A stretch of 64,000 bases of DNA from an archaeon (GTDB lineage: Archaea > Nanobdellota > Nanobdellia > Woesearchaeales > GW2011-AR9). This document shows, piece by piece, positions 1 through 31,970 of the stretch. The notes beneath the pieces were generated by a model. That model was not told where the DNA came from. It was given only the letters and a program-made list of their open reading frames with translations, and did not search any database. The stretch spans positions 15,180-79,179 of the forward strand of contig JABHQR010000023.1 in the NCBI GenBank assembly GCA_018696395.1, in the 5' to 3' direction. Both the position numbers and the translations under genes were made by a program. Position 1 is the first letter of the stretch; each line of letters opens with the position of its first letter.

Positions 1-113
1 TCAAAATTTGGAACTATACGATCATCAAAACCTTCACCAAAATAAAGAAAATAATCTCTTAAATCCTTAATCTCCTGTTCCAATGTTCGTTTTAAGTTCA
101 TTTTATGAGACAT
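1..113 (-). CDS. Partial CDS, N-terminal fragment of a gene continuing beyond the left edge
   Basis: ATG at 113..111 reads MSHKMNLKRTLEQEIKDLRDYF... It lies 4 nt downstream of the stop of the 118..1440 gene on the same strand, so the co-directional array continues leftward. Confidence 0.4.
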   Translation of the reverse strand, partial: MSHKMNLKRTLEQEIKDLRDYFLYFGEGFDDRIVPNF

Positions 114-117
114 TTAG

Positions 118-1440
118 TTAACCCCTAACTTCCAACTTTTTCCCTCTAACAATAAAATCATACAGATTACTGTTAGTATCCTTGACCATCCCCATTAAAT
201 TCCTAGACCAAATGATTGCACAATCTATTTTTTGTTCAGGCGTATCACCTAAAAATATAGCTTCATTCAAATTATCAAAATAAGTAAACTTAAATTTACG
301 ATAGATTTTATTAAAAGATAAATTAGCCCCAGAAGGAACACTTGACCGAACATATGAATCACACATTTGATAAGCGTCACAGATATTCTTAATATTTGAC
401 ATAGAAAGATTATTTTTAAAATCAGAATCTACTAAATAAGGAGCTATATTCTGTTGATAATAGGTGAAATCATCTAAATCAATGTAATTTAAATTAGGAT
501 TAACCAATATTTTTTGAATTTCAAGTCTAAATTGACCCTCAGTTCTGATTCTATTACCATCAATTTGTCCCATCAAATAAGAGATAGTTTCATCATAAAC
601 CTCTTTATCGAGTAATTTATCTTTATAATTTAACAAATTTTTAACAGCCCATTTCCCTTTATCATTAAGAGCTCCATTAAAATTATTTAATGTTGAAGCA
701 ATAGTAGATCCTTTCTTACATGAACCAAGAATCTCAAAAATATCTTTAATTAATTTATCTTTAAGTTCAATAGGAGTAATGAAAGAAGAACTAATTTCAT
801 TAAAAAAATGATTAAGATTAACTTCAAAAGTCTTTTTGTTAAAATTCTTTCCTTCAAGGTAATCTTGTTTATTGAAAACAAGTTTCATATTATCTTGGGA
901 ATAGAATTCAGATAAGTTATTTAGATAAGCATTTAGAGATTTATTTACTTTAATTTTAAATTCAGGAGTTCCAATTCCAAGACCACAAAATCTTCTGTTA
1001 AATAAAGAATGGACTGAGTCTAAATTAGAATTTAAATTATTACAAAAAACACCTAACAAAGGACTTTCTTTATAATTATTAAATAGATTATTTAAATTTT
1101 GTAATTGAGAGGGATCATATTCTAACTTAGTAAAAATATTTTGAATCAAAACAAAAGTATAATTTGAATCATCAAACTCAGTTTCATTCCAATAATCAAA
1201 AGTTTTTTTCATGACATTATTAAATACAAACAAATCATTTTCATTATTAAAATGTTGATAAGATGAAGTAACCAATGATTCAAATAAATCATCATAAAAA
1301 TAATTTAAATGTTCAGGACATTTAGTTACAATATGTTTTATGAGATCTTTGGATGAATCTAAAAAATCTTCACTAAAGGATTTATCTTTAACTGCAAAAT
1401 CTAAAATCACGTTTACAAGTCCTTCAAGATCCCTTTTCAT
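118..1440 (-). CDS. Array family member (conserved C-terminal signature), 440 aa
   Basis: C-terminus '...LGDTPEQKIDCAIIWSRNLMGMVKD' fits the family signature (G-D-x-x-E-Q-K ... W ... hydrophobic-K). No signal peptide. Tightly packed head-to-tail with its neighbours. Confidence 0.7.
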   Translation of the reverse strand: MKRDLEGLVNVILDFAVKDKSFSEDFLDSSKDLIKHIVTKCPEHLNYFYDDLFESLVTSSYQHFNNENDLFVFNNVMKKTFDYWNETEFDDSNYTFVLIQNIFTKLEYDPSQLQNLNNLFNNYKESPLLGVFCNNLNSNLDSVHSLFNRRFCGLGIGTPEFKIKVNKSLNAYLNNLSEFYSQDNMKLVFNKQDYLEGKNFNKKTFEVNLNHFFNEISSSFITPIELKDKLIKDIFEILGSCKKGSTIASTLNNFNGALNDKGKWAVKNLLNYKDKLLDKEVYDETISYLMGQIDGNRIRTEGQFRLEIQKILVNPNLNYIDLDDFTYYQQNIAPYLVDSDFKNNLSMSNIKNICDAYQMCDSYVRSSVPSGANLSFNKIYRKFKFTYFDNLNEAIFLGDTPEQKIDCAIIWSRNLMGMVKDTNSNLYDFIVRGKKLEVRG

Positions 1441-2634
1441 TTATAACTCGCCCCCTACAGACAACTGAAAGTAACTAAATAACCTATCTGGATTTTTCTT
1501 GATTAAACTATAAGTATTAAGCAAAAATTCAGTCATAAGATTCTTTTTATCTGAAATGTTGTCTGCTTGAGAAGTAGCTTCTTCAATGCCTGAAGCAAAA
1601 CATTTTGCAAATTTATCTTTAAAATCTGATTCTTTAAAACCAACTATAAAATTTCTATTCAACAGATTATAACTTAAATTATAAATATTCATGATTCTAT
1701 TGATATCCTTACAATTCAAACTCCTCGTTAATTCAGTGTCAGAGATATAAACTTGAAAATGACCTAAATATTGTTCAATCACTTTTGGCTTCAACTCAGA
1801 ATAATAAGGATCTTTGTTAACATAATTTAATATTTCAAAATGCCAAGAATTGATTTCATATAAAGACAATGCTTTCTTAAATCTATCCCTAGAAGTTAAA
1901 GTTGTTACAAATTCTTTTAAAAATGAACTGGGTTCTTCATCAAAAAGAGTTATTAATTTATCATGAATTTTTACAAACTGGTTAACTTCAGAGATACTAA
2001 AACAATAATTTAAAATTGTTAATACATTATCCAAATTATTTCTTACTTTATCAAGGTCATGTCTTAAAAAATAAGAGGACATACCTAGATTAGTAATTAA
2101 TTCTTTTCCAGAATCAGGATTTGCTTTATCTAAAATAATTTTTTTAACTTGATCTTCTAAATATATGGAAAAAACATTATGTCCAATTTCTAAACAATTA
2201 ATTCCACCATCAGCCCCTATAAAAATATTTAATTCAATTAATCCTTTAAAGAGATCTTTTTGCATATGATCTTCTAAAAGGGAATAATCTTCCAAGATTT
2301 GACATGCAATTGAACCTAACTTTTGTGATTGATCCCTAAATGAAGATAATAACTCCAAACCAGACCCAAAACGATTTTGCTTTTTTAACAATTCAAGATA
2401 TTTTGGAAGTTCCAATTCAATTTTATTTTCTAGATGATTGGACGAATTTAATTGTAATTTAGTGAGATTATCTGAATTAATTAAATTGTTTAGAAGAGTT
2501 CTTATTTGATAATTTTTATCTAAAAAAGTGTAATGTTTAATAACTTCTGGAACCAAACATACTAAATCATTAAAATTATCTTGATCATTGTAAACTTTAC
2601 GCAAATCTTTCATAATTTTTCTCTGAGAACTCAT
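1441..2634 (-). CDS. Array family member, 397 aa
   Basis: C-terminus 'KKNLMTEFLLNTYSLIKKNPDRLFSYF..VGGEL' belongs to the 'LIKK[ND]P..F' subfamily. ATGA overlap with the upstream gene at 2631-2634. Confidence 0.7.
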   Translation of the reverse strand: MSSQRKIMKDLRKVYNDQDNFNDLVCLVPEVIKHYTFLDKNYQIRTLLNNLINSDNLTKLQLNSSNHLENKIELELPKYLELLKKQNRFGSGLELLSSFRDQSQKLGSIACQILEDYSLLEDHMQKDLFKGLIELNIFIGADGGINCLEIGHNVFSIYLEDQVKKIILDKANPDSGKELITNLGMSSYFLRHDLDKVRNNLDNVLTILNYCFSISEVNQFVKIHDKLITLFDEEPSSFLKEFVTTLTSRDRFKKALSLYEINSWHFEILNYVNKDPYYSELKPKVIEQYLGHFQVYISDTELTRSLNCKDINRIMNIYNLSYNLLNRNFIVGFKESDFKDKFAKCFASGIEEATSQADNISDKKNLMTEFLLNTYSLIKKNPDRLFSYFQLSVGGEL

Positions 2635-3896
2635 TCAACCATCACCTCTTGCAGGAAATATGTTTTGAAAAGTCCAGGATCTTTTTTTACTAAAGAAGAT
2701 GTTTCATTGATCCATTCTAAAAGATAAATCTCTTTCTGATGATTACTTTCTACCAAAGAGATTGTTTCATTTAAATATTTAAAAAAGTAATCATCAAGCT
2801 TATCATTAACAACATTTTTACCTAAAAGATTAGTTATATCATTTTCAAAAAGTTCAGACATATTTGTATTAATAACATTATAAACAAGATCATATAACAC
2901 AATCAATCTATTAATGCAATTATAAGATATTTCGTTCTTAAATTCAGAATCATTAATTTCTTCTCTAAAACATTCTGAATATCTTAAGCAAAGCCCTATA
3001 TCAAACCCATCTTTATCTTTGGACATACTATAATAATCTAAATTATTTTCAGTTTGATTTAGACTAGAAGATTTATTTATAACCTTTAAAGTGTCCTCAT
3101 AATTAATTTTTTCTTGATAAGAGTTGATAGAATCCAATAATTTAATAAAATCTTTTTGATTTTTAATGTTAATATTAGTTTTATAAGTTAAAATTAAATT
3201 TAATAAAACCATTTGATTTTCATTTTTACATGACCTGTATAGATTAGACAATCTTTTAATATTGAGATTTAATTTGTCCCCGTTAGATTTAAATAATTGA
3301 TAACAATTCTCAAAAGAGCTTATCATCCAAATAGAATCAAGATTACTTAATTGTTGATGTTCAAAAAATATTTCTTTAAGTAGATCAGATGTTGTAAAAT
3401 AATTAATTTTGTTTTTTATAGATTCTCTTTTTTTAGGATCATCTTTAAGATATAGTTCCCTAGCATAATTAGAAAGATAGTTTATTAATGATTCAGAGAT
3501 TTGGGTATTAGAAAATGATTTAATGGATGAGATCACATTTGAACATAAATCAAACTTAACTTTTGGATGAAAGTCACTTCTTAAAATATCATTTAAACCC
3601 ACAATGATCCGATTAAACTTGTTATGATTACCATCAGGAAGATTATCTTTTAATACATCTAAAAGAGAGCCCATCTTTGAAAATTTAGGATTAGAGTGAT
3701 CATAATTGATTATCTTTTTGAAGAGATCTACTGATTGTTGTTCACAATTTTGATTTGTGACATAATTAAAAACAGACCTAATATCACTTTCAATTATTTC
3801 AGGAGCCAGTTCTAGATCAATACCCATATCCTGAATCCCAGAATATACTTGGTTGGATATAGACATAATTTGATTAATTTCATGTTCCAATCTCAT
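2631..3896 (-). CDS. Array family member, 421 aa
   Basis: C-terminus 'NHQKEIYLLEWINETSSLVKKDPGLF'. ATGA overlaps at both ends. Confidence 0.7.
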   Translation of the reverse strand: MRLEHEINQIMSISNQVYSGIQDMGIDLELAPEIIESDIRSVFNYVTNQNCEQQSVDLFKKIINYDHSNPKFSKMGSLLDVLKDNLPDGNHNKFNRIIVGLNDILRSDFHPKVKFDLCSNVISSIKSFSNTQISESLINYLSNYARELYLKDDPKKRESIKNKINYFTTSDLLKEIFFEHQQLSNLDSIWMISSFENCYQLFKSNGDKLNLNIKRLSNLYRSCKNENQMVLLNLILTYKTNINIKNQKDFIKLLDSINSYQEKINYEDTLKVINKSSSLNQTENNLDYYSMSKDKDGFDIGLCLRYSECFREEINDSEFKNEISYNCINRLIVLYDLVYNVINTNMSELFENDITNLLGKNVVNDKLDDYFFKYLNETISLVESNHQKEIYLLEWINETSSLVKKDPGLFKTYFLQEVMVE

Positions 3897-5200
3897 CCCA
3901 CCATCACCTCTGGTGTGAATATTTTTAACGCACCAAAATTTTTTTCAAAAATCCAAGATTCACGTTTCATAACCCTAGTAACTTCTTTTGACCAATTAAC
4001 AAGAAGACTCTTCTTTTCACCAAGATTATTGCCAATCCCTATAACTTCATTCATTGCAGATTGATATTCAACTTTTAAGTCATTTAAATCATACAGGTGT
4101 GCCCATCTAGTAGTATTCCAATTAGGATAAGATTCAACAATCCTATAAATTAATTCATATGATTCCATCAAACATTTAATCTCTTTCATAGAAAGATCAT
4201 TTCTTAATTCATGATCTTCAATTTTTGAATGAAGTAAAGATAAATAAGTTGGATAGATATTATTGTCATAATTTGGTTGGTTAGTTTTCTTTAGCTCATT
4301 TATACCATATTTAAATTGATCAATAGATTTCACTTCATTAAACATAATTAATAAAGAATTATAATCCAAACTATCTTTATGTTCAGTTAATATTTGATAA
4401 TAATCAACCATCACACCAATTTTTTGCCCCTTAGTATATTTTTTATCCCATATAGTTTTACTCAATAAATCAATTTGTTCTTTGGTCTCACAACGATTAT
4501 AAAGAACAGCCAACACTTTAAATTGTTCTAATGCATCTTCTTTTCCTAAGCAGTAAGATAATGGATTAAAACTCCTAAATATACTTTGTAGTTGATTCAG
4601 GCTGTAGTCTTTATGTTTCATAAAAAGTTCAGTGCAACAATCTAAAGATAAACCATTTAATAATACCTTAGAATCAAACACTTTATTTCTTCCAGAATGT
4701 GAAACAAAATGTTTTAATGGAGAAACAACATCATAATAAACAAGATCAATTAAATCAGAGGAGACATCAGATTGAGAATAAGGGATTAAGAATTCAGATA
4801 AAGGGATAATTAGATCTAAAACAGTTTCATTAAATAATTTTGACAATTTCAAAAAACTTTTTTCTGAACCCATATAATCTTTAAAAAGATCTAACATAAA
4901 ATCAGTTTTTGTTTCATCATTTTTTTCATCATATAATTTTAGCTTTAAGATAACATTCCTTATTTTAACATGATTATATTTCTTCCTAAAATATTTACCT
5001 AAATCATTTTCATGGTCATAGGTAACAACACCTCTTTCAATACAATCATCACTATGATTAAATATCACACCCATATCTTCAATAATTTCATCTAAATTTC
5101 TTCTAAAAATTTTACTATTATCAATTAGTTCAGAGTAAGATTCCCTTAAAGAGCCTAATGATTCGTTTACATCTATTTCCCAAGGAAACTGTTCACTCAT
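3893..5200 (-). CDS. Array family member, 435 aa
   Basis: C-terminus 'IGNNLGEKKSLLVNWSKEVTRVMKRE' resembles that of 22413..23657. ATGA overlaps. Confidence 0.7.
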   Translation of the reverse strand: MSEQFPWEIDVNESLGSLRESYSELIDNSKIFRRNLDEIIEDMGVIFNHSDDCIERGVVTYDHENDLGKYFRKKYNHVKIRNVILKLKLYDEKNDETKTDFMLDLFKDYMGSEKSFLKLSKLFNETVLDLIIPLSEFLIPYSQSDVSSDLIDLVYYDVVSPLKHFVSHSGRNKVFDSKVLLNGLSLDCCTELFMKHKDYSLNQLQSIFRSFNPLSYCLGKEDALEQFKVLAVLYNRCETKEQIDLLSKTIWDKKYTKGQKIGVMVDYYQILTEHKDSLDYNSLLIMFNEVKSIDQFKYGINELKKTNQPNYDNNIYPTYLSLLHSKIEDHELRNDLSMKEIKCLMESYELIYRIVESYPNWNTTRWAHLYDLNDLKVEYQSAMNEVIGIGNNLGEKKSLLVNWSKEVTRVMKRESWIFEKNFGALKIFTPEVMVG

Positions 5201-6270
5201 GCTACCATCACCTCTTGCATAAGATTACTTCGGAAAAGATCAGGATCTTCTTTGATCAATCTTTTAATATCATAACAAAAAGAAAGCATATTTCTTGTTC
5301 TTTCATTTACAGAATCACCCATTACCATTACATCATTTAAATGTTCAAAGAAATAATTCTTCCCAATTACTGATCCTTTAGTATAATAATCTAATGTTCC
5401 TGAAACAAGGTCATATGTATCTACTAAAACTTTAATTTGACCCATGTTAAGATAATATTTGGTATCAACTTTAAGCCTATTCCTAATATTCAAACAATAA
5501 TCTTGAAAGATAGGTATATCTACTTTCCCAATATTTTCATAATCTCGAACCTCATATATTAAAGCAATTAATTCGTTAAAATCTAAATCTTGACATATAG
5601 CGTCTTGATACATTATGGCTTCTTTTTTATTTTGAGGTTCTAATTCAATATCAAATAATAAAGTTAAATAGTTATAAAGTTCTGGTGTTCTTTCATGTTC
5701 AGAGTTATGTTTATAAAATAGTTTACACGCTCCTGAAAGGACAATATCTTTATAATCAGAACTAGCATAATGATGTAATATATTAGTAGTGATATCAAAT
5801 AGAGTACGTCTTTTGTTAGAATCATATAATTCAAATTTATCATCAATATCCCAAGCAGTAAATGGTAATTCCAAATAATCAAAGTTAAGGTTAGCTTTAT
5901 TTTTTAAAATAAAATTGTTTAACTTCTTTATGGGTACCAATAAGTGTTTATCATACAAAAAATTACGATCATGATTTATTCCAATACACAGATAATGATT
6001 ATTGGATAATATTTTTTTATAAAAATCATGATTTTTGAAAATTTCTATAATTTCAATTACTTGTTCATAATAATCTAATATTTCATGTTTATCCTCTTCA
6101 GAATTAGGAAAAAACCTATGCCAGTCTGATATTTGTTCAAGGTAAAAAGTATTTGAATCATTCTCTGAATAAGAATAAATTTTTCTTCCTAACTGGTCTA
6201 ATATTTTATCAAGATTTTCATCAATCTTATTTTCCAATCCAGAATCTTTTGAAGTGGTCATTTTCTTCAT
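5197..6270 (-). CDS. Array family member, 357 aa, close paralog of 15896..16897
   Basis: C-terminus 'MGDSVNERTRNMLSFCYDIKRLIKEDPDLF'. The internal block 'LIYEVRDYENIGKVDIPIFQDYCLNIRN...YYLNMGQIKVLVDTYDLVSGT' aligns with 'LIYDSRDYENIKIVDICPFMDYCLKIKN...YSLNMKQIKTMMETYDLLEGT' in 15896..16897. Confidence 0.75.
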   Translation of the reverse strand: MKKMTTSKDSGLENKIDENLDKILDQLGRKIYSYSENDSNTFYLEQISDWHRFFPNSEEDKHEILDYYEQVIEIIEIFKNHDFYKKILSNNHYLCIGINHDRNFLYDKHLLVPIKKLNNFILKNKANLNFDYLELPFTAWDIDDKFELYDSNKRRTLFDITTNILHHYASSDYKDIVLSGACKLFYKHNSEHERTPELYNYLTLLFDIELEPQNKKEAIMYQDAICQDLDFNELIALIYEVRDYENIGKVDIPIFQDYCLNIRNRLKVDTKYYLNMGQIKVLVDTYDLVSGTLDYYTKGSVIGKNYFFEHLNDVMVMGDSVNERTRNMLSFCYDIKRLIKEDPDLFRSNLMQEVMVA

Positions 6271-6275
6271 TCACC

Positions 6276-8705
6276 TTACACCAGATACATCTCAACGATA
6301 TCTCTTGCTACGTAAGGTAAAGTTTCTGGCCTTACAACCAATTGAGCATGAGTAGCAAATTCTTTAATTTCGTTATAAGCTTCAATTTCACTGCTATCAA
6401 CCTGATCGCTAGATTTTGTTAAAATGTAAAATACTTTAATATCCTGGTCAGTTGCTTCCTTGATAGCCATCTTAGTATCGTAAACACCTCCCTCATAACT
6501 ATAATCTGCAGGCCTCCCATCAGCAAACAAGAATAAAATCTTATCTTCTGATTTGCCATCTAACAATTTTCTGGTAACTGACCTAATTGCAGCACCGTCC
6601 CGATTTGCATTTCCGGGGTCAATAGTAGTTAATGCATTAATATGGTCAAATTCGTACAGATCTGTATTCCTGTATGATTGGTAAAGAAATTTTCGAATAT
6701 TAAAATCATCGTCCATTTCTAAATCCCTGAATGAAATATCAATAATAGCTGCAGCAATTTTTTCAATATCTAAAATGTTAGTTTTTCTTTTTAGATTAAC
6801 AATTGATTGAGCTCCTGATGCCAACTTTTGACTAGTTGAACCAGACCCATCAAGTAATAAAGCAATATCATAATTTCTTTTATTAATTAAACTAGCATCA
6901 TAAAATCTTTGCTGAGATGCAAAATGTGGATCAATAGAAGCAAACACAACACCAACAGGGTTAAAAGAGTGAGGAGTAGATTGCATTCTTTCTACTTGTA
7001 ATTGATTAAGTTTAAGTTGTTCAAACTGTTCATATACACCAGTGATTACATTTCCATAAAGTGACCTAATTCTTCTTTCAAAATCAGGATCACCACCACT
7101 TAATCGTTTATTAAATATTTCTGAAGGAACTACTTGCTGTTTCTTAGAGTCATATTCATAAAATATTTCTTTAGACACATCATCTTTATCTTCATTATTA
7201 ATTAACCCATCTTTACTTGGCACTGGGTTCTTTTTCTTTTTATAATGTTCAGGACTAATATTCTCAGCAATTTTATCTACCCTACTTTGAATTTCATCTT
7301 TTCTTTCTTTCAATTCATCAACACTTTTAGGTTTAATTGATCCTTGAGTAAAATCATCAGTTTTTCCGAAAGTAGGATTTTGATCATCATTCCAATCTTC
7401 ACTTTTAGAATTGTCTCCTTCACCATTTTGATCAGTTTTACTTTGACCCTGATCACCTTCACCTTTCCCACCACTTCTACCTTCCCCAGTGCCACCACAT
7501 TGATTATTTCTTTGAGAACGATAATTGTTAACTGGTTCAGGAAATTGTAGTTCCAACATCCGATACAATTCAGGTAATAATCCAACCGCTTCACATACAT
7601 TTTTACCACGTAAATCATATACCTTTTCAGCCATATTATTCATTAAATCACGATAATTGTAAATACCCAATTCTTGAAGTTCTGGAACTGTTTCTTTATT
7701 GAAAAATTTAAACTCAAACTCTTTAATTTCATTTATATCATTGTACCTTTCTTGATTAGAAGCCCTGTTCATTTCTAACCTTTTACCACTAAGGTATTCA
7801 TTACCATTAGCACTTAACACTTCAGAAAGAGTACTCCCACAATTTTGACCACATTTAATTTTACGTAACCACGCATTTTTAAAATTTATAAAATCATATA
7901 TTTTGACTTTTTGTTCTAACTGTTCCGCAGATTCTGTTGTTTGTTCTAAAAGTTTAGTTTCATCAGGTTGGTCATTTGAATCATTTTTAGCTTTATATTC
8001 AGGATCTTTATATTCTCCTTGAATTCCAATCAATACTAGGTTAATAAAATCTAAACAAACTTTAAAATCAGATCTTGATTTAATCCTATCACAAAGGTTA
8101 ACTTCAATCCTATAATCTTCAACAATATTAAATAAATCTGCAGCTAATCCAGAATTAGTTCCAGAAGTTTCCACTTCACTCCCAGTTCCTTTTTCCTCTT
8201 TATCTTTCTTGGTATATACTGAAGAATCATTACCAATGATTGAATCAATACTAGAATCACCAATATTAGCCCCATTTGGTCTTACAATTGGAACTTTACC
8301 ACCATACAAATCATTAAAAATATCTTCTAAATTTAATGGTTCAAAACTCCCTTCTAAAATATGTGCTGCTTCATGAATAAGAATACCTTTGTAAAGAGTG
8401 ATATTTCTGTTTCCAGTTAAAACATGTTTATTATCTTTCTTAAAATCATTTATTTTTGCTGCTAATTGGATCTCAAATAAATTATCAGTATATTCAGTAC
8501 TTTTTCTCAAAAGATAAGTTACACCATAACCACTACCTGCTTTAATTGGAACTTTACCCCCTAACAGAGGAATATTGGTAACCAAATAATGTTCACAAAA
8601 AGAAGAATTTTCTTTAAATTCTTCAAGACTTACACCTATTGGCATTGCTGCTTGAAAGATCATTCTAAGACGTCTAAGTCTTCTTTCCATTTCATCGTTT
8701 GACAT
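6276..8705 (-). CDS. vWA-domain protein, 809 aa, with N-terminal HExxH (putative metallopeptidase-like) region and C-terminal vWA/MIDAS; MoxR partner of DUF2201-like architecture
   Basis: 'LLLDGSGSTSQ' is a MIDAS DxSxS motif sitting in a hydrophobic beta-strand context. The N-terminal region carries 'LIHEAAHILEG' (HExxH). A central low-complexity Gly/acidic linker reads 'GGTGEGRSGGKGEGDQGQSKTDQNGEGDNSKSED'. The gene sits immediately downstream of an AAA+ ATPase gene on the same strand. Confidence 0.7.
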   Translation of the reverse strand: MSNDEMERRLRRLRMIFQAAMPIGVSLEEFKENSSFCEHYLVTNIPLLGGKVPIKAGSGYGVTYLLRKSTEYTDNLFEIQLAAKINDFKKDNKHVLTGNRNITLYKGILIHEAAHILEGSFEPLNLEDIFNDLYGGKVPIVRPNGANIGDSSIDSIIGNDSSVYTKKDKEEKGTGSEVETSGTNSGLAADLFNIVEDYRIEVNLCDRIKSRSDFKVCLDFINLVLIGIQGEYKDPEYKAKNDSNDQPDETKLLEQTTESAEQLEQKVKIYDFINFKNAWLRKIKCGQNCGSTLSEVLSANGNEYLSGKRLEMNRASNQERYNDINEIKEFEFKFFNKETVPELQELGIYNYRDLMNNMAEKVYDLRGKNVCEAVGLLPELYRMLELQFPEPVNNYRSQRNNQCGGTGEGRSGGKGEGDQGQSKTDQNGEGDNSKSEDWNDDQNPTFGKTDDFTQGSIKPKSVDELKERKDEIQSRVDKIAENISPEHYKKKKNPVPSKDGLINNEDKDDVSKEIFYEYDSKKQQVVPSEIFNKRLSGGDPDFERRIRSLYGNVITGVYEQFEQLKLNQLQVERMQSTPHSFNPVGVVFASIDPHFASQQRFYDASLINKRNYDIALLLDGSGSTSQKLASGAQSIVNLKRKTNILDIEKIAAAIIDISFRDLEMDDDFNIRKFLYQSYRNTDLYEFDHINALTTIDPGNANRDGAAIRSVTRKLLDGKSEDKILFLFADGRPADYSYEGGVYDTKMAIKEATDQDIKVFYILTKSSDQVDSSEIEAYNEIKEFATHAQLVVRPETLPYVARDIVEMYLV

Positions 8706-8811
8706 TTTTATAGTTTTTTAAATTTAAGTTAGTTAATGATATGATATTCTTAATCATGCATCTGTAATTAAAAAATCACAATTATTTAAATTAAAAAAAA
8801 TAATTTCAGAT

Positions 8812-10059
8812 TTAGACTCCTTGCGTAGCGTCTTTAGGTTTAGGTATTAAATCATAAGATGTTGCAATTGCAGCAAGATGACTCCATTGATTAGTACCCG
8901 TACTTGATATCATTTTATCTGCCAAAGCACCATGTAATAACTTATCTAATATTTCATAGGTTGTTGCATGTGTAGCTCTTTCAGAATCACCAAACAGTTC
9001 TAAATTATCTTTATATGTTTGAAATCCAACTTCAATGGTTCTTTGATCAGGATAAACTAATGATATCCCGTTACCCTCAGGAGTATGTTCAGATCTCACT
9101 TCAGAACTGATTGTTTGATATAATGAGTCTGGACCACTAGTAATATTTTTTATATTAACAACTCCCCTTAATGCAGTTAAGAATTTCAAATAACTTAAAT
9201 AAAAATCCCCTTGGCCTTCAATTTGTTCTTTAACTTTTTTCCAAGCATCAGAATCATGTTTAACATTTTCTCTATTAAAATATTGATAAGTTGCTAATTT
9301 TCCAACTTCCCTAATAACTTCTTTATTAGCAATATTCATCCAATTACCGCTATCATTTTTTTCTAAATACATTAACAAATCACGTTTAGGCTCATAAATA
9401 ATTCCTCTTTCTTCTAATGGAAGATCAATATCTATTCCCATAGTTTTAAAAGCAACATATGCACCTAAAAAAGAATCAATATCATTAAAAATAGATGGAG
9501 AACATCTACTTTTATGAGAAAATTCAAAATTATCTCTACCAGAAGTAGTTCTTTTTGGATTAAAAGTTTCAGCATAAACAAAGTCTTCAACGTCCCAACC
9601 ATGTTTATCTTTCATTTCTCTTAATGTAACTTTATTTCCTTGTTTATCAAGAACTGTAAAGTCTAAAAAATCTCCAGTTAATAACATAGAAAGTGATTTT
9701 TGTGAATGAGGTGGCATTTCACTACTTTCTTCATTTAAGAAAATTGCAGATTTATTTCTAAGAGCAGATGTTAGTTCAGTATCTGAATAAAAAGTAGTTC
9801 CATTAGAAAAAGCTGGCCTTCCTTGATAATCAAATTCCTGTTCATGAATATGGCAAGTTCTTGCAAATACTGTCCGATCGAAAATATCTGCTACGAATCT
9901 GATTGCACTAGATTTACCATTACCTGGTTCACCTTGTAAAGCAATATTCTTTTTTCGTCTCATTGCTGATGCTAACCATCTAATTTCATCCATGTAAGAT
10001 GTCTTACCTTGGTTTGCAATGTATAATCTATTAAATTGAGAATTTTTTTCTTGTGTCAT
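8812..10059 (-). CDS. AAA+ ATPase, MoxR/CbbQ/McrB-like, 415 aa
   Basis: Walker A 'LQGEPGNGKSSAIRF'. Candidate Walker B 'AIFLNEE'. Adjacent to, and co-oriented with, the vWA protein gene. Confidence 0.6.
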   Translation of the reverse strand: MTQEKNSQFNRLYIANQGKTSYMDEIRWLASAMRRKKNIALQGEPGNGKSSAIRFVADIFDRTVFARTCHIHEQEFDYQGRPAFSNGTTFYSDTELTSALRNKSAIFLNEESSEMPPHSQKSLSMLLTGDFLDFTVLDKQGNKVTLREMKDKHGWDVEDFVYAETFNPKRTTSGRDNFEFSHKSRCSPSIFNDIDSFLGAYVAFKTMGIDIDLPLEERGIIYEPKRDLLMYLEKNDSGNWMNIANKEVIREVGKLATYQYFNRENVKHDSDAWKKVKEQIEGQGDFYLSYLKFLTALRGVVNIKNITSGPDSLYQTISSEVRSEHTPEGNGISLVYPDQRTIEVGFQTYKDNLELFGDSERATHATTYEILDKLLHGALADKMISSTGTNQWSHLAAIATSYDLIPKPKDATQGV

Positions 10060-10257
10060 TTTTCTTTTATTTACCCCATATGTTTAGATATTTTCATCAT
10101 TATTTTTTATCAATTTACAACTGTTAATTCAAACAGCATTACATCTAATAATTTTACCAATAACACTATCACCTAGATACACCTCAGAACAGCTATCACT
10201 AATTAGTGGTACCGAGGCATGATATTTATAAATCTTTTGGTTATTTAGAGAGAGATA

Positions 10258-11451
10258 TTAATAATTAATTACTATGAGATCTGAATTAGCATACAATACA
10301 CCAGCCATTGTATCTTTCATAACTCTCCTTTTAACATCAACTGCCCATTGATTAATCATTCTTCTTTTTTCAGGGATATTATTTCCATAAGCCATTGTTT
10401 CATTAGTATAAACCCTAAACATGTTCTGAATCTTTTCAACATTGAACCAACTTTCTTCATTCTTAAATAAAACTGAATAAGCCTCAACAACAGTAGTGAT
10501 TTCATTATTATTAAGAGAATTCATAACTTTGTGATTATCTCCACAAATAAATAAAGGAAGAATTTTTTCTAAATAAATACCCAAAACATTAACTTTTGAA
10601 TTTAAAAAGTCTAAATTAGGCATATGTTGAACTGCCCAATTTAGCTCATTTCCAGAAACATCATTTCTAACTAACCCTTTTATTTGATTAACAAATTTAG
10701 GGAAATAAATTTCATCCTTATACTCAACTAATAGATCACAAACATTATTGATTCTTGCTGCAGAAACTTTTTTTGATAAAACATCACCTAAACATTCATT
10801 CACAATATTTCTGTGATTATGTTTAGAAAATGTAAGTAAAGTGTCAATTATTTTTTCGTCATGATTAGACCTAAGTAATTCAGGAGGAAATTCCAAATAA
10901 TGTTTAGTCATATAACTATTACATTCTAAAAAGCCCAGATCTAATTCAGAAGTAATTAATTTTTCTTGACGATATATTTGGTAAAGTTTTAAAAGTTTAT
11001 TTACTGCTTTAAAATTAGCTCTTTGAATTATTGAATTTACTAAATTATCATTATAAAGCAAAAAACGATTCACATTTGAATCAAGAAAATTTGTAATTAA
11101 TTCTTTCCTAGAATTATGGTTAATCATCCCATTATAACAAATTTTACTAAGATCTTCGATAATCATTATCCCAAAATTAATTTCATTATCTCCTTCTGGA
11201 GATATTTGGTAAGAAACTTCATACATAAAATTAACCATAGAAATAGAAAGGTCTTTATCTTTATACTCATTGGTGATATCTACTAAATTCATTAATAAAG
11301 ACTTATTGACCCATTTTGGATTTGCAAAAGATTTATTGAAATCAGACAAATCTTCTTTAACATCATCATAACGTCCATCATTTTGAAACAAATTTTTCAA
11401 ACTATTATTAGCTTTTTTTACAAGTTCCCCTAGGGTTTGTTTATCTGACAT
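10258..11451 (-). CDS. Array family member, 397 aa
   Basis: C-terminus 'YGNNIPEKRRMINQWAVDVKRRVMKD'. Confidence 0.7.
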   Translation of the reverse strand: MSDKQTLGELVKKANNSLKNLFQNDGRYDDVKEDLSDFNKSFANPKWVNKSLLMNLVDITNEYKDKDLSISMVNFMYEVSYQISPEGDNEINFGIMIIEDLSKICYNGMINHNSRKELITNFLDSNVNRFLLYNDNLVNSIIQRANFKAVNKLLKLYQIYRQEKLITSELDLGFLECNSYMTKHYLEFPPELLRSNHDEKIIDTLLTFSKHNHRNIVNECLGDVLSKKVSAARINNVCDLLVEYKDEIYFPKFVNQIKGLVRNDVSGNELNWAVQHMPNLDFLNSKVNVLGIYLEKILPLFICGDNHKVMNSLNNNEITTVVEAYSVLFKNEESWFNVEKIQNMFRVYTNETMAYGNNIPEKRRMINQWAVDVKRRVMKDTMAGVLYANSDLIVINY

Positions 11452-12823
11452 TTATCATCTCACTAAAATTAAAATATTCCAACAATCTTCCTGGCTCCTT
11501 AGTTATCGTTCTAATCACATTATTTGCCCAACCAAACATTAATTCTTGTTTTTCTTGTAAAGAATTTAACTGTGCAAGTTCATGATTGTACACATCAAAG
11601 AAAATAGTTTCAATTTTTTCTTTGATAATATCAGGATTTATAGTTTCTGCATAAGGATCATTAAAACAGATAGTAGCATAAGCATTAAGAGAAATTTCGT
11701 AAGCTTCCATCAATTTTTCTTTTTGCTTACAATTTAATGAATTAGAATAATCTTTATTTGAGATTTTTCTATTGATAAGATATTCAAATGCAACATCAAA
11801 AGGAGACTTTTCAAAAATAAAAGTATTAACTTCTTGAAAATATTCTAAAAAAATTTTTTCTTTCTCTTTTAGATTATCTGTTTTTGATAATAAGGCACTA
11901 ACATTTAACATATTAAATCGTTCTATACTGTCGATGAAATACAAATTAAATTCATTTTCAAATGTAGATGAAGAATAAGAGATTTTAATCAAACTGATAT
12001 ATTCTGATAAAATACTGATACAACTTAAAGGCAAAGGACTAGTAAAATAATCTTCGCACACATAATTAGCACTGTTATACTGATAGAGATAATAATTCCT
12101 AAAAGCATTTGGATCTAAATCAGATAAATCAGAATAAGAACTTAACATTTCAGATAATTTAACAACTTGCTTTTCTCTAAAATCAAATACATTAATGATA
12201 TTATCAAATGTTTGTAATACTCTAAAGAAATCATCCCCTTTACTTTTAAATTTTTTAAGTTCCCTAAAAGCTAATTTATACTTAACATTATCCATATCTT
12301 GATTAGACCATAAATTTAGTATTATTAAAGCATTTTCATCGAATTCTTTACAATGACAAAAATCAAAAAATTCTAATAATGTACTTAACTCTCTTTTACC
12401 GGAATAATTTTTAATATAAGCACCTATTGAAGAGGTCATAATTTGCAAATTTGAAACATTTTTCGTCTTAGAATACTTTTCAACAACGTTACAAACCTCA
12501 TCAAATTTGAAATAATCTTTATCTAAACACTTACCAACATCACTTATAAAATTAATCGGAACATGAATGTTATCAACTTTTGACATTGCAATTAAAACTT
12601 CATTAAATCTATTTAACCTTGAACAATTTAACAAAGGCATAGGCCGAATCAAATCACTATGCCAATAAGCATGACCTAACATTGACAATTCTCTGACGTC
12701 ATATTTTTGGATATAAGAATCAACCATTTGATCAAATGTATCTAAGACAGTTTCAAGGTTAGAAAATCCTTTTCTAGAATGTTCAATTTCTTTTCTGATA
12801 TCTTCAAAATTAAACATAACCAT
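11441..12823 (-). CDS. Array family member, 460 aa
   Basis: C-terminus 'ELMFGWANNVIRTITKEPGRLLEYF', a more divergent version of the signature. Confidence 0.6.
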   Translation of the reverse strand: MVMFNFEDIRKEIEHSRKGFSNLETVLDTFDQMVDSYIQKYDVRELSMLGHAYWHSDLIRPMPLLNCSRLNRFNEVLIAMSKVDNIHVPINFISDVGKCLDKDYFKFDEVCNVVEKYSKTKNVSNLQIMTSSIGAYIKNYSGKRELSTLLEFFDFCHCKEFDENALIILNLWSNQDMDNVKYKLAFRELKKFKSKGDDFFRVLQTFDNIINVFDFREKQVVKLSEMLSSYSDLSDLDPNAFRNYYLYQYNSANYVCEDYFTSPLPLSCISILSEYISLIKISYSSSTFENEFNLYFIDSIERFNMLNVSALLSKTDNLKEKEKIFLEYFQEVNTFIFEKSPFDVAFEYLINRKISNKDYSNSLNCKQKEKLMEAYEISLNAYATICFNDPYAETINPDIIKEKIETIFFDVYNHELAQLNSLQEKQELMFGWANNVIRTITKEPGRLLEYFNFSEMINVR

Positions 12824-13949
12824 TCACCACCAAACTATTTTTGTACAGTTGACCATTCATATCAGCAAAATGTATCCCCTTAACTAAACCATCACACCAT
12901 TCCAAAATATCTCTTTTTCTTTGATTAGTATTATCTCCTAAACCTTCAACTTCTCGAAGAAATTCAATAAATTGTCTTTTAGCAGATTTATAACTCCAAC
13001 TTTGTTCAGGAAACCTTTCTCTAGAAAAATTGAAAGCAAAAGTAATTTTGTTAACTTCTCTTAAATTCATTGTATCTGCTAATTCTTGATTCCTGAATCC
13101 ATCACGAATATGATAAAAGTAATCATATACTGAATATGCTAAAAAATCATTTAAGTTGGATTGTTTGATGAGATAATCACAAACTTCCTTACCCAATGAA
13201 GAATGTCGCAGACTCCCAACTAAATATTTATTAAATAAATGATTAATTTCATCAAATTGGTTATTGTCCCTAGTTTTCTTTAATAATTTATTATAATCAC
13301 ATACAAAATTAAGAATATTTTCTCTTGAAAAACTTTTTAAAACTTTATGGACCTCATTATCACCCCCATAATTAGAATAAACTTCAATAATATTATTAAA
13401 AGTAGCATCATTACAATATGAAGAATCAAAAATTATTTTAAAAACTTCTTCCTGATATATTTCTCCATAACTGTTTAGGACATTGGTAATTTCTTTAGAT
13501 GCACACATATTTAATGATTTAATTATTTGTTTTTTGATATGACTAAAATTTCTTATTTTCTCAAGATATTGTAAAGAGCACCTATTTAATTTCTCAACAT
13601 CTTTATGACATAATGTAAATGCCCGAATATGATTTATTATTTCTGGATCATCACCAAACTGAACTTGTGACATCCTAAACACTTCTACCATACCACTAAA
13701 ACCAGAATCAGAGCAGATATAATCTTGTTGAAATGATTTTAAGAATCTTTGATGAGATAAAGAACTAACTGGAACTCTTGTCATGAAATCTTTGGAAGCA
13801 TAGAGAACATTTCTTAAATTATCTTCATTAGATTGTACTTTTTCAATTACTTGATCTAACGAAGTTGTAAGACATTCTTGTTCAAAAGGAGAGTAAGTTA
13901 CTGAGATCAATCTTCTTACTTCTTGTTCCAACACAGATAAAGAACTCAT
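12810..13949 (-). CDS. Array family member, 379 aa
   Basis: C-terminus 'LGDNTNQRKRDILEWCDGLVKGI'. Confidence 0.7.
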   Translation of the reverse strand: MSSLSVLEQEVRRLISVTYSPFEQECLTTSLDQVIEKVQSNEDNLRNVLYASKDFMTRVPVSSLSHQRFLKSFQQDYICSDSGFSGMVEVFRMSQVQFGDDPEIINHIRAFTLCHKDVEKLNRCSLQYLEKIRNFSHIKKQIIKSLNMCASKEITNVLNSYGEIYQEEVFKIIFDSSYCNDATFNNIIEVYSNYGGDNEVHKVLKSFSRENILNFVCDYNKLLKKTRDNNQFDEINHLFNKYLVGSLRHSSLGKEVCDYLIKQSNLNDFLAYSVYDYFYHIRDGFRNQELADTMNLREVNKITFAFNFSRERFPEQSWSYKSAKRQFIEFLREVEGLGDNTNQRKRDILEWCDGLVKGIHFADMNGQLYKNSLVVNGYV

Positions 13950-14920
13950 CTCGCATCACATCCAAACATTAACCTAAGTTCATCATCATAAGCTCCGGAC
14001 TTAATCATACGCTGTACTTCTTTGCACCAGTAAGTCATACTTTCACGTTTCTGTTCTAAGGTTTCTCCGTAAGATATTGCTTCATTTAAATGATGAAAGA
14101 AAATATCATCGCCAGTTCTGATAACATAACTATATGTTGAAAGATCATTTTCAAAGTTATTTCTACAATAATTGATTACAAGATCGTGAGTAGAACTAGT
14201 AATAATCATTTCATCATAATTTAATTTATACTTTAAATCAGGATCATCAATAGAATATTCAAAAGAAATAATAAAATTTTTTAAATTTTCAAAATTATGA
14301 TGTTTTTTAAATTGATTTTCATGTTTAAAATTAGATCTTGGCTGCATAAATCCAGGAAACTTAATTAAGTAACTATTAAATATTTTAAACTCCCTTTCTA
14401 AACTTTTTTCTAAGATATTACAAGATTCTTTAAACATTTCATGATCATGAAAATTTCCCACATAGTTCATTAAATCTTTTAAAACACTAATTCCCTCTTT
14501 TTGATAACATAAATTTCCAAACATATAAATTACTGGTCCAACAAAATTATTAGTTCCAGCTGAAAGGTATGCATCTTTAAAATCATCAAAAACTTCCATG
14601 ATATCATAAGATATTAAATTACTAATTAGATTACCAGCAAATCTCAAATTACATTTTTTACCATTATCGATACAATGAGAATAAAAATAACCCAAATTTG
14701 TCAATTCATTTAAATCTTGATTTTTATCAAGGGATTGATAAAAACTATTAAATACTTCAAAAGGGATAATAATTTTATTTGGATTTTGAATACTTTTAAT
14801 CTTATCAATAAAATGATGATAAGAATCAATAGCTAAACTAAGATCAGAAGATTTTTCTTCTTTGAAAACTTCACGTACAAAATCCTCAAATTCATTAATA
14901 TTTTTTTCTAATAGGCTCAT
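13946..14920 (-). CDS. Array family member, subfamily A (~320 aa)
   Basis: C-terminus 'ISYGETLEQKRESMTYWCKEVQRMIKSGAYDDELRLMFG'. It shares 'KFPGFMQPRSNFK', 'LKYKLNYDEMI' and 'FFHHLNEAIS' with three other ~320-aa members. A strong SD (GGGGGTGAGG) lies upstream and ATGA overlaps the neighbour. Confidence 0.8.
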   Translation of the reverse strand: MSLLEKNINEFEDFVREVFKEEKSSDLSLAIDSYHHFIDKIKSIQNPNKIIIPFEVFNSFYQSLDKNQDLNELTNLGYFYSHCIDNGKKCNLRFAGNLISNLISYDIMEVFDDFKDAYLSAGTNNFVGPVIYMFGNLCYQKEGISVLKDLMNYVGNFHDHEMFKESCNILEKSLEREFKIFNSYLIKFPGFMQPRSNFKHENQFKKHHNFENLKNFIISFEYSIDDPDLKYKLNYDEMIITSSTHDLVINYCRNNFENDLSTYSYVIRTGDDIFFHHLNEAISYGETLEQKRESMTYWCKEVQRMIKSGAYDDELRLMFGCDAR

Positions 14921-15894: not shown

Positions 15895-15895
15895 T

Positions 15896-17877: not shown

Positions 17878-17905
17878 TTTTTATTATATTTGATTATTTT
17901 AAAAT

Positions 17906-23657: not shown

Positions 23658-23658
23658 T

Positions 23659-26588: not shown

Positions 26589-26589
26589 C

Positions 26590-29839: not shown

Positions 29840-29840
29840 C

Positions 29841-31925: not shown

Positions 31926-31970
31926 ATAATATCTCCCTAGCACCCCTATTTACCACTAATAAGGTGTGTT

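What the first reader, a model, noticed from the sequence alone, without database searches (positions are those of the whole stretch)
6276..10059. MoxR-type AAA+ ATPase plus HExxH/vWA-MIDAS protein embedded inside the paralog array
The array is interrupted exactly once. The interruption is a same-strand pair. One gene is an AAA+ ATPase with Walker A 'GEPGNGKSS'. The other is an 809-aa protein with an N-terminal 'HEAAH' metallopeptidase-like motif, a Gly/acidic disordered linker, and a C-terminal vWA domain with an intact MIDAS 'DGSGST'. MoxR-family ATPases paired with vWA proteins act as substrate-remodelling chaperones; CbbQ/CbbO, NorQ/NorD and RavA/ViaA are examples. MoxR pairing with N-HExxH + C-vWA proteins is also the known DUF2201-type partnership. 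vWA-MoxR modules also form the core of the NTP-dependent ternary conflict systems described by Aravind and colleagues. Embedding inside a hyper-diversified gene family, with no other gene types present, suggests the family members are clients, adaptors or effectors of this ATPase/vWA machine. I do not think this combination has been described in archaea.
Basis: partly seen in the sequence, partly recalled or inferred. Interest (0 to 1): 0.85.

Follow-up and report, generated by a model that had tools for sequence, protein, structure and literature searches.

The report
AAA+/vWA motor with amplified partner genes
A rare three-part protein machine (an ATP-driven motor, a metal-site adaptor and a helical partner protein) sits in a small-genome archaeon that has copied the partner gene at least 25 times, which suggests one motor served by a library of interchangeable partners.

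Summary
Window 8812-10059(-) encodes a 415-aa AAA_5 (MoxR-class) ATPase. Window 6276-8705(-) encodes an 809-aa protein with an invariant HEAAH module, a Gly/acidic linker, a NorD-like pre-vWA "finger" and a vWA domain with a complete MIDAS. This pair is the only interruption of a minus-strand array from 118 to 31943.

The array and the pair belong together. All 22 array ORFs share a conserved C-terminal helical hairpin. In 9 independent lineages (6 Woesearchaeota-like archaea, 3 Desulfatiglandales/Desulfobacteraceae bacteria), one or more genes with that module lie directly downstream of the pair. Bacteria have one minimal 223-228-aa copy. Archaea have 2 to at least 17 copies, and this genome has at least 25.

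By sequence the pair is closest to CobS/CobT and NorQ/NorD. It does not match Pfam DUF2201, and the third component is not the VMAP of the described ternary conflict systems.

Best model: a CobSTN-like motor-adaptor-third-subunit machine whose third subunit is an amplified alpha-solenoid family. The biological role is inferred only. Candidates are a conflict or host-interaction repertoire, or client maturation.

The family is very rare: 94 hits among 1.84 billion representative proteins. I found no description of it. I rate it a new variant of a known kind.

The parts
8812..10059 (-). AAA+ ATPase, 415 aa, AAA_5/MoxR class; the motor subunit
   Evidence: Pfam AAA_5 E 4.7e-8, 7/7 homologues. Best PDB sequence hits are NorQ (E 0.005) and CbbQ. 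PHROG 249, CobS-like 'porphyrin biosynthesis', E 3.9e-8.
9907..9933 (-). Walker A GEPGNGKSS (res 43-51)
   Evidence: Translation. GxPGxGKS is invariant in 7 homologues.
9727..9735 (-). Atypical Walker B: N109-E110-E111, with Asn in place of the usual Asp
   Evidence: Invariant in 7 homologues. Sensor-1-like 'TFNP' (N167) is also invariant.
6276..8705 (-). CobT/NorD-like adaptor, 809 aa: HExxH N-domain, disordered linker, finger, vWA
7542..8705 (-). N-terminal HExxH module (res 1-388). Invariant H111, E112, H115, 'ILEGSFEP' and E196-D197-x-R199-x-E201. This protein has lineage-specific disordered inserts.
   Evidence: Alignment A1. The same module occurs in a Desulfotruncus NorD/CbbO-like protein. 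PHROG CobT-like families hit 6/8 homologues, best stretch res 108-210. The AF2 model is poor, pLDDT 56.
8361..8375 (-). HEAAH motif (res 111-115)
7350..7529 (-). Gly/Asp/Glu/Asn-rich low-complexity linker (about res 393-452)
   Evidence: Sequence. Length is variable, and the linker is nearly absent in P0006 and P0007.
6870..7049 (-). Pre-vWA segment (about res 553-612) homologous to the NorD region that includes the pore-inserting finger
   Evidence: Profile A1 against PDB: NorD 9qhd_G E 9.4e-11, with NorD residues 397-605 aligned. The finger's function is described in PMC13036017.
6402..6869 (-). vWA domain (res 613-768) with a complete MIDAS: D619-x-S621-x-S623, T681, D729
   Evidence: Pfam VWA. 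Invariant columns. Weak CobT_C hits in 4/8 homologues.
6834..6851 (-). MIDAS DGSGST (res 619-624)
10258..31943 (-). Upstream block of 17 third-component paralogs (212-873 aa), mostly overlapping by a few bases, ending next to IleRS
   Evidence: The C-terminal-module HMM hits every ORF.
118..6270 (-). Downstream block of 5 third-component paralogs. It begins 5 bp after the vWA stop and continues beyond the window's left edge.
   Evidence: L020 shows 3 more confirmed members and a further gene.
1..113 (-). 5' end of the next array gene (464 aa in L020), cut by the window edge
13946..14920 (-). Representative third component (324 aa): 17-helix alpha-solenoid. The conserved hairpin is helix 260-283, a loop with G285, then helix 288-308 (F274, L278, N279, G285, K291, W298).
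10060..10257 (-). 198-bp intergenic region upstream of the AAA+ gene. It is the only long gap inside the array, contains a TTTATAAATA-like element, and is a possible internal promoter.
   Evidence: The promoter role is inference only.
8706..8811 (-). 106-bp spacer between the AAA+ and vWA genes, with T8 and T6 runs
   Evidence: No function was tested.

Best explanation
The pair and the array form one three-component MoxR-vWA machine built on the CobS-CobT-CobN / NorQ-NorD plan.

Shown: an AAA_5 ATPase; an adaptor with an HExxH N-domain, a disordered linker, a NorD-like finger and a MIDAS-competent vWA domain; and a third component that is always encoded directly downstream. The third component is a soluble alpha-helical-repeat protein. 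Its only conserved part is a C-terminal helical hairpin with the pattern FFxxLNxxIsxGxxxxEKxxxxxxWxxxVxRxIK.

Inferred by analogy with the NorQD and CobSTN structures:
- The ATPase forms a hexamer.
- The adaptor inserts its finger into the pore, and its N-domain binds the ATPase small subdomain.
- The third component docks on the adaptor through its conserved C-terminal hairpin near the MIDAS, as the last two helices of CobN domain VI do.
- ATP-driven rotation or stretching of the adaptor then remodels the third component or whatever its variable solenoid holds.

Bacteria have one minimal third component. In Woesearchaeota-like DPANN archaea it has been amplified and its N-terminal solenoid diversified, with at least 25 copies here. 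One motor-adaptor pair would therefore be shared by a library of interchangeable target-binding subunits. The strictly conserved HExxH/ED-R-E site is probably a functional metal site, either a peptidase or a metal-handling centre, acting on the docked partner or its cargo. The biological role is not shown. My leaning is a conflict or host-interaction repertoire rather than cofactor insertion.
For: - Domain calls.
- Invariant Walker A, HExxH and MIDAS.
- Conserved order AAA, then vWA, then one or more third components in 9 lineages across two domains.
- The bacterial single-copy 223-aa gene is homologous to the array C-termini (E 2e-14 to L001, 2.9e-9 to window 22413-23657).
- A second lineage has at least 16 array genes after the pair.
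- The module is always at the protein C-terminus in 94 of 94 database hits.
- The third component is an alpha-solenoid, and the hairpin is the best-predicted and most conserved part.
- C-terminal tails are similar within a genome but differ between genomes (EVMVG-type here, YVVAK in L005, SGVSVE in L001). This is compatible with co-evolution with the single-copy pair.
- Structural precedents: NorQD finger-in-pore and linker stretching (PMC13036017). CobT has an M48C-like N-domain, a roughly 90-aa disordered linker, a shaft and a vWA domain, and the CobN solenoid's last two helices sit at the MIDAS (bioRxiv 10.64898/2026.07.21.739949).
- All proteins lack TM segments and signal peptides.
Against: - There is no physical or experimental evidence of interaction. 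I could not run multimer modelling.
- Loci were mostly found by querying with the vWA protein, so co-occurrence is biased in that direction. Four array-only contigs (L024-L027) are too short to show whether a pair is present.
- Similarity to CobT, CobS and NorQ is weak: E 1e-2 to 1e-8, below the Pfam CobT_C cut-off.
- Walker B has Asn instead of Asp in all homologues, so the ATPase chemistry may be atypical.
- The third component shows no sequence similarity to CobN.
- The docking geometry is an analogy, not a result.
Confidence: 0.55

Rival explanations
1. This is an NTP-dependent conflict or immune system in the sense of the vWA-MoxR ternary systems. The variable solenoids are sensors for viral or host proteins, the conserved hairpin couples sensing to the MoxR switch, and the HExxH domain is the effector protease. 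This rival concerns the biological role and is compatible with the mechanism above.
For: - Strong paralog amplification with fast-diverging N-termini and a constant C-terminus.
- Copy number varies from 1 through 2, 6 and at least 17 to at least 25 between lineages.
- Patchy distribution across two domains suggests horizontal transfer. The bacterial AAA+ is 46-48% identical to archaeal ones, more than some archaeal-archaeal pairs at 37-40%.
- In bacteria the cassette is self-contained among unrelated genes.
- The layout matches the constant-plus-variable third component described in PMC7159879.
- About 35 kb is a large investment for a small genome.
Against: - No PADLOC hit for any component.
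- The third component is not VMAP-C or iSTAND.
- The vWA protein has no variable effector domains.
- Neighbours are housekeeping genes, not defence islands.
- The locus keeps a stable position next to IleRS in three archaeal lineages.
- No toxic effector is recognisable apart from the untested HExxH site.
Confidence: 0.25
2. This is a classical maturation chaperone or chelatase, like CobST, NorQD or CbbQO. The pair inserts a metal or cofactor into, or reactivates, the helical proteins, which are simply its clients, or into another enzyme to which they bind.
For: - All characterised close relatives do this.
- A distant relative in Desulfotruncus (L013) sits beside CobW, a corrinoid protein, DUF2284 and a URO-D-type enzyme, and shares the HExxH module.
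- The HExxH/E site could be a metal-handling site.
Against: - No CobN, ChlH, NOR or Rubisco-like gene appears in any of the loci.
- The third components carry no conserved Cys/His metal-binding pattern in the shared module.
- At least 25 divergent 'clients' is hard to reconcile with a dedicated maturation factor.
Confidence: 0.12
3. The adjacency is coincidental. The pair is an unrelated operon, or a mobile or viral insertion, that landed inside a pre-existing paralog array.
For: - The pair has slightly higher GC (0.30-0.31) than the array (0.25-0.28).
- It has its own 198-bp upstream gap.
- CobST-like pairs are common in tailed viruses (PMC8651126).
Against: - The same adjacency recurs in 9 lineages including bacteria, with a family that is otherwise almost absent from 1.84e9 proteins.
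- No relatives were found in phage records or viral contigs.
- The GC of the pair equals that of the rest of the window.
Confidence: 0.03

Closest known systems
Aerobic cobaltochelatase CobS-CobT-CobN (also the cobST pairs of tailed viruses)
   Same: - An AAA_5-type motor, with a PHROG CobS-like hit.
- The adaptor has the same order of parts as CobT: a peptidase-like N-domain, a disordered linker, a pore-inserting segment and a MIDAS vWA domain. PHROG CobT families hit 6/8 homologues and Pfam CobT_C hits weakly in 4/8.
- A third subunit is an alpha-solenoid whose last helices could dock at the MIDAS.
   Different: - There is no CobN, and the third component is unrelated to it in sequence.
- The Pfam CobT and CobT_C cut-offs are not reached.
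- The ATPase is 415 aa with a unique roughly 200-aa C-terminal half and an NEE Walker B.
- The third subunit is amplified to at least 25 paralogs.
- There is no cobalamin context.
NorQ-NorD (and CbbQ-CbbO) MoxR/vWA chaperones
   Same: - These are the best solved-structure matches: NorQ E 0.005, and NorD E 9.4e-11 with the family profile, covering the finger plus vWA region.
- The MIDAS is DxSxS-T-D.
- The adaptor has an N-domain, a linker and a vWA domain.
   Different: - There is no CbbQ_C lid domain.
- No NOR or Rubisco client is present.
- The N-domain is not detectably similar to PDB NorD.
- A dedicated third-component family exists.
vWA-MoxR ternary conflict systems (VMAP and iSTAND types; Kaur et al. 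2020, PMC7159879)
   Same: - The logic is three components: a MoxR, a vWA protein, and a third protein with a constant module fused to a highly variable, mostly alpha-helical region.
- The phyletic distribution is patchy.
   Different: - VMAP-C is alpha+beta, whereas this module is an all-alpha hairpin.
- The vWA protein lacks C-terminal effector domains.
- There are no EADs, caspase, trypsin or TIR domains.
- There are no PADLOC hits.
- Diversity here comes from tandem gene amplification, not from domain shuffling.
Pfam DUF2201_N (PF13203) + DUF2201 (PF09967) proteins paired with MoxR ATPases
   Same: An HExxH module lies N-terminal to a vWA-like domain, next to an AAA_5 gene. From memory only, the pattern 'HExxH ... 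D/E-x-x-I-N/E' looks similar.
   Different: No HMM match in any of 8 homologues at E<=5. Membership is not shown.
Acidianus two-tailed virus p618 (MoxR) / p892 (vWA) tail-assembly chaperones
   Same: It is a MoxR-vWA pair in the archaeal world that acts on helical or filament proteins. It is cited in PMC7159879.
   Different: No viral relatives of any of the three components were found. The context here is chromosomal and conserved.

Membership tests
MoxR-class AAA+ (Pfam AAA_5; CbbQ/NorQ/CobS-like) | AAA_5 HMM above the gathering score | tested here: met
   33.6 bits against 22. 7/7 homologues hit, best E 5.3e-11. Only profile positions 2-90 of 139 align.
MoxR-class AAA+ (Pfam AAA_5; CbbQ/NorQ/CobS-like) | Walker A GxxGxGK[ST] | tested here: met
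   GEPGNGKSS; invariant core.
MoxR-class AAA+ (Pfam AAA_5; CbbQ/NorQ/CobS-like) | Canonical Walker B hhhhDE | tested here: not met
   hhhNEE, with Asn invariant in 7 homologues. The Glu residues are retained.
MoxR-class AAA+ (Pfam AAA_5; CbbQ/NorQ/CobS-like) | Adjacent vWA-MIDAS partner gene | tested here: met
   Every locus.
MoxR-class AAA+ (Pfam AAA_5; CbbQ/NorQ/CobS-like) | CbbQ_C-type or MoxR lid domain | tested here: not met
   No Pfam hit in the C-terminal 200 aa. The L013 outgroup does have CbbQ_C.
MoxR-class AAA+ (Pfam AAA_5; CbbQ/NorQ/CobS-like) | Hexameric ring and ATPase activity | not testable with these tools
   Needs biochemistry or cryo-EM.
CobT/NorD-type vWA adaptor | C-terminal vWA with a complete MIDAS (DxSxS...T...D) | tested here: met
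   D619, S621, S623, T681 and D729 are invariant. Pfam VWA hit.
CobT/NorD-type vWA adaptor | Pore-inserting finger or shaft preceding the vWA domain | tested here: inconclusive
   The profile aligns to NorD 397-605 at E 9.4e-11, including the pre-vWA segment. Insertion into a pore was not tested.
CobT/NorD-type vWA adaptor | Disordered linker between the N-domain and the vWA domain | tested here: met
   Low-complexity G/D/E/N-rich stretch, variable in length among homologues.
CobT/NorD-type vWA adaptor | M48C-like (zincin) N-terminal fold | tested here: inconclusive
CobT/NorD-type vWA adaptor | Pfam CobT or CobT_C above the gathering score | tested here: not met
   CobT_C only weakly, best E 0.017, in 4/8 homologues. 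PHROG CobT-like families hit 6/8, best 3.2e-7.
Cobaltochelatase / Mg-chelatase holoenzyme | CobN/ChlH large subunit | tested here: not met
   No Pfam hit of any kind in the array proteins. None in the neighbouring genes of related loci.
DUF2201 (PF13203 + PF09967) | HMM match to PF13203 and/or PF09967 | tested here: not met
   No hit in 8 homologues at E<=5.
vWA-MoxR VMAP/iSTAND ternary conflict systems | Third component with VMAP-C (alpha+beta, 7 strands) or an inactive STAND domain | tested here: not met
   The third component is all-alpha with 17 helices. No nSTAND or VMAP Pfam hits. Definition taken from PMC7159879.
vWA-MoxR VMAP/iSTAND ternary conflict systems | vWA protein with variable C-terminal effector domains | tested here: not met
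   The vWA domain is at the C-terminus, and the architecture is constant in 8 homologues.
Known anti-phage defence systems (PADLOC-DB 2.0) | HMM match of any component | tested here: not met
   0 hits for 7 proteins.

The most novel reading that the evidence does not exclude
The array is a germline-encoded repertoire of at least 25 recognition subunits. Each variable alpha-solenoid would bind a different viral, host or competitor protein. All would plug through the same C-terminal hairpin into a single AAA+/HExxH-vWA engine that remodels or cleaves the captured target. This would be a previously unrecognised type of innate-immunity or host-manipulation system in DPANN archaea, with a single-receptor version exchanged with sulfate-reducing Desulfobacterota.
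Probability: 0.25. Interest if true: 0.85.

Novelty: new variant of a known kind. Interest (0 to 1): 0.62.

Why it matters
MoxR-vWA machines are widespread, but how they choose and act on substrates is still being worked out. The first NorQD and CobSTN structures date from 2026.

This system offers a natural case in which one motor-adaptor pair is genetically tied to a defined and previously unannotated partner family. That family ranges from a single roughly 225-aa minimal module in bacteria to at least 25 diversified paralogs in an archaeon. This gives a direct handle on the docking interface, through the conserved hairpin, and on specificity, through the variable solenoids.

It would also assign a function to about 35 kb of 'dark matter' in a DPANN genome, a group whose biology depends on interactions with other cells. 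Finally, it documents a cassette shared between Woesearchaeota-like archaea and Desulfatiglandales bacteria.

Tried and rejected
- Profile-mode search for homologous proteins with the C-terminal module (A2) and with the HExxH module (A7) returned essentially nothing, not even the known members. Those two searches are uninformative. The exhaustive representative search replaced the first.
- The afdb50 fold library was unavailable.
- PADLOC gave no hits.
- There are no tRNA or Rfam elements in the window.
- Phage tblastn and two viral-contig scans found nothing.
- The N-domain profile found nothing in PDB sequences.
- A 2026 Nanobdellota genome paper does not mention such arrays.
- I considered and rejected a canonical chelatase (no CobN), CbbQO/NorQD (no client, no CbbQ_C), DUF2201 membership (no HMM hit), a secreted or surface family (no signal peptide or TM segment), and a chance insertion (conserved neighbourhood).
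- Look-ups of array-only contigs could not settle whether arrays exist without a pair, because the contigs are short.

Full report
**1. Observation**

The window is AT-rich (GC about 0.26-0.32). From 118 to 31943 it carries an uninterrupted run of minus-strand ORFs that mostly overlap by a few bases.

Two ORFs differ from the rest.
- 8812-10059(-) encodes 415 aa with 'GEPGNGKSS'. It matches Pfam AAA_5 at 33.6 bits against a cut-off of 22.
- 6276-8705(-) encodes 809 aa with 'HEAAH', a Gly/acidic low-complexity stretch and 'DGSGST'. It matches Pfam VWA at 34.6 bits against a cut-off of 23.8.

All-vs-all BLASTP shows that the remaining ORFs are divergent paralogs, 15-45% identical, whose similarity is concentrated in the last 100-190 residues. 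A profile of that C-terminal module hits all 22 ORFs, including the large ones at 25263-31943, and nothing else in the window.

The same locus from another sample (L020) extends 3.7 kb past the window's left edge. It adds three more confirmed members and a further gene. The array therefore has at least 25 members: 17 upstream and at least 8 downstream of the pair. The pair is the only interruption.

The flanking gene is an archaeal/eukaryal-type IleRS. The public copy of the adaptor is labelled '[archaeon]', and its relatives are labelled Woesearchaeota.

**2. The pair and the array are one system**

The adaptor has only seven non-self relatives in the word-indexed 5.8-billion-protein set. The GTDB species genomes and JGI metagenomes add only six loci each.

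In every locus an AAA_5 gene lies immediately upstream on the same strand. Wherever DNA continues downstream of the vWA gene, the next gene or genes carry the array's C-terminal module:
- Window/L020: 5 to at least 8 copies downstream, plus 17 upstream.
- L021, a 68%-identical relative: at least 1 copy before the contig ends.
- L001, continued by L022 on the same 192-kb contig: at least 16 copies.
- L007: at least 2 copies before the contig ends.
- L005/L010 (Woesearchaeota GCA_050187915.1): 6 copies.
- L008 (Woesearchaeota): at least 2 copies.
- Three bacterial lineages, L004/L009/L017 (Desulfatiglandales, 4.16-Mb chromosome), L012 (Desulfatiglandaceae) and L016: one gene of 223-228 aa visible in each. 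In L016 the contig ends inside that gene.

The bacterial protein consists of little more than the conserved module. It matches archaeal array members at E 2e-14, and window 22413-23657 at E 2.9e-9.

An exhaustive HMM search of 1.84 billion representative proteins finds only 94 proteins with the module, always at the C-terminus. Of these, 32 map to loci I hold. Adjacency of so rare a family to so rare a pair in nine lineages across two domains cannot be chance.

Two caveats apply. Most loci were found starting from the adaptor, so the sampling is biased. Four array-only contigs (L024-L027) are too short to show whether a pair is nearby. Two of them come from the same sample as L021, which does have the pair, and one comes from the same sample as L007.

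In the other archaeal loci long enough to show it (L001+L022, L005, and the JGI 3300072015 contig) the pair heads the array. In L001 and L007 it is also near IleRS, so there is synteny with the window. The 'embedded' position here is therefore derived. Seventeen paralogs fill the space between IleRS and the pair. The pair keeps a 198-bp upstream gap with a TATA-like element.

**3. Anatomy of the pair**

*ATPase.* Across 7 homologues, Walker A (GxPGxGKS) and a sensor-1-like TFNP are invariant. Walker B is hhhNEE, with an invariant Asn where Asp is expected. The C-terminal roughly 200 aa have no Pfam match, and there is no CbbQ_C domain. The nearest solved relatives are NorQ (E 0.005) and CbbQ. 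The nearest PHROG is the CobS-like 'porphyrin biosynthesis' family (3.9e-8).

*Adaptor.* Across 8 homologues the invariant features are H111-E112-x-x-H115 within 'LIHEAAHILEGSFEP', E196-D197-x-R199-x-E201, and the full MIDAS D619-x-S621-x-S623 ... T681 ... D729. The linker is low-complexity and varies in length. The family profile matches NorD (PDB 9qhd_G) at E 9.4e-11 over NorD residues 397-605, which is the vWA domain plus the segment before it.

PHROG CobT-like families hit 6 of 8 homologues, with the best stretch over the HExxH region. Pfam CobT_C hits 4 of 8 weakly. No DUF2201 or PF13203 hit appears even at E<=5.

The HExxH module is shared with a 983-aa vWA protein of Desulfotruncus arcticus. 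That protein reads 'NIKLYKSFLIHEIAHILEGTYE ... DLFEYIEDARVE' and aligns over about 110 residues. Its partner is a canonical CbbQ/NorQ-type ATPase, and it sits beside CobW, a corrinoid protein, DUF2284 and a URO-D-type enzyme. The module is thus a feature of a wider adaptor class.

**4. Anatomy of the third component**

The conserved core is a helical hairpin: helix 260-283, a loop with G285, then helix 288-308. The conserved residues are F274, L278, N279, G285, K291 and W298. This is also the most confidently predicted part.

Tails after the hairpin are similar within a genome but differ between genomes: EVMVG-type here, YVVAK in L005, SGVSVE in L001. N-terminal regions range from about 40 aa in bacteria to more than 900 aa. 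They show internal duplication.

None of the proteins has a TM segment or a signal-like N-terminus. None has a significant Pfam, PADLOC or PHROG match: only isolated hits at E 0.004-0.009 appear (two Pfam hits in 17 members; one PHROG hit to the bacterial L004 protein), all consistent with chance.

**5. Mechanism**

*Shown.* The system is a conserved three-gene cassette. It comprises a MoxR-class ATPase, a CobT/NorD-like adaptor with conserved metal-site motifs, and a helical-repeat third component with a constant C-terminal hairpin. The third component is massively amplified in some DPANN archaea.

*Inferred from the 2026 NorQD and CobSTN structures.* In those structures:
- The adaptor's finger or shaft inserts into the AAA+ pore.
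- The adaptor's N-domain binds the ATPase small subdomain.
- The linker is stretched or rotated by ATP turnover.
- In CobSTN, the third subunit CobN sits between the adaptor's N- and C-domains. The last two helices and connecting loop of its alpha-solenoid domain lie at the MIDAS.

The present adaptor has the same order of parts, and its third component ends in a conserved two-helix hairpin. I therefore propose the same docking logic. The variable solenoids would act as interchangeable target- or cargo-binding modules that compete for one motor. The invariant HExxH/ED-R-E site argues for a working metal centre, but whether it is a peptidase or handles metal is open.

*Biological role.* I lean toward a conflict or host-interaction repertoire, for four reasons: the amplification, the fast N-terminal divergence, the variation in copy number, and cross-domain transfer. 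On the last point, the bacterial AAA+ is 46-48% identical to archaeal ones, while some archaeal pairs are only 37-40% identical. Against this reading, there is no defence-island context, no PADLOC hit and no recognisable toxic effector. A classical client-maturation role remains possible.

**6. Comparison and novelty**

The system works like CobSTN, NorQD or CbbQO, and it resembles the vWA-MoxR ternary conflict systems of Kaur et al. in layout. It fails the defining tests for membership of each (see the membership table):
- There is no CobN, NOR or Rubisco.
- The Pfam cut-offs for CobT are not reached.
- There is no CbbQ_C domain.
- There is no DUF2201 match.
- The third component is not VMAP-C or iSTAND.

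I found no paper describing the third-component family or such arrays. I classify the system as a new variant of a known kind. The pair alone is a new, divergent member of the MoxR-vWA class. The dedicated hairpin-solenoid partner family and its tandem amplification are new.

Noticed in passing
window 9727-9735 (-): Walker B of the ATPase reads N-E-E, with Asn in place of the canonical Asp. It is invariant in all 7 homologues from archaea and bacteria, which may signal unusual Mg/ATP handling.
   Followed up: partly
L013 6125-13399 (Desulfotruncus arcticus NZ_FOOX01000003.1): A distant relative of the pair, a CbbQ/NorQ-type ATPase plus a 983-aa vWA protein with the same HExxH module. It is flanked by a B12-binding corrinoid protein, a CobW GTPase, DUF2284 and a URO-D-type enzyme. 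It may be a MoxR-vWA system serving a corrinoid methyltransferase.
   Followed up: partly
L004/L009 (Desulfatiglandales chromosome OY762721.1), L012, L016 compared with the archaeal loci: The bacterial ATPase and adaptor are as similar to some archaeal versions (46-48% and 42%) as archaeal versions are to each other (37-49%). This implies inter-domain transfer of the three-gene cassette between Desulfobacterota and Woesearchaeota-like archaea.
   Followed up: partly
window 8706-8811 (-): The spacer between the ATPase and adaptor genes has T8 and T6 runs resembling archaeal terminator signals. Partial termination could set a motor:adaptor ratio above 1. This is speculation.
   Followed up: no
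window 27218-29839 and 29841-31943 (-): The two largest array members (873 and 700 aa) are paralogs of each other with an internal duplication: residues 2-560 and 541-873 of one both align to the other. This shows growth of the solenoid by repeat duplication.
   Followed up: partly
window 52286-53872 (-): A 528-aa ThyX with two Thy1 stretches, an apparently duplicated or fused flavin-dependent thymidylate synthase.
   Followed up: no
window 54295-55311 (+): A 338-aa fusion of an N-terminal P-loop kinase-like domain (AAA_18/AAA_17) with a C-terminal dCMP/cytidine deaminase domain.
   Followed up: no
window 118-31943 compared with 32000-64000: The array is slightly more AT-rich (GC 0.25-0.28) than the pair (0.30-0.31) and the rest of the window (0.27-0.32). 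About 35 kb of one small genome is devoted to this system.
   Followed up: partly
L005 5644-7926: In the Woesearchaeota locus L005, two paralogous genes (368 and 358 aa, one with a YadA_head hit) lie just upstream of the pair. No counterpart is seen in the window.
   Followed up: no
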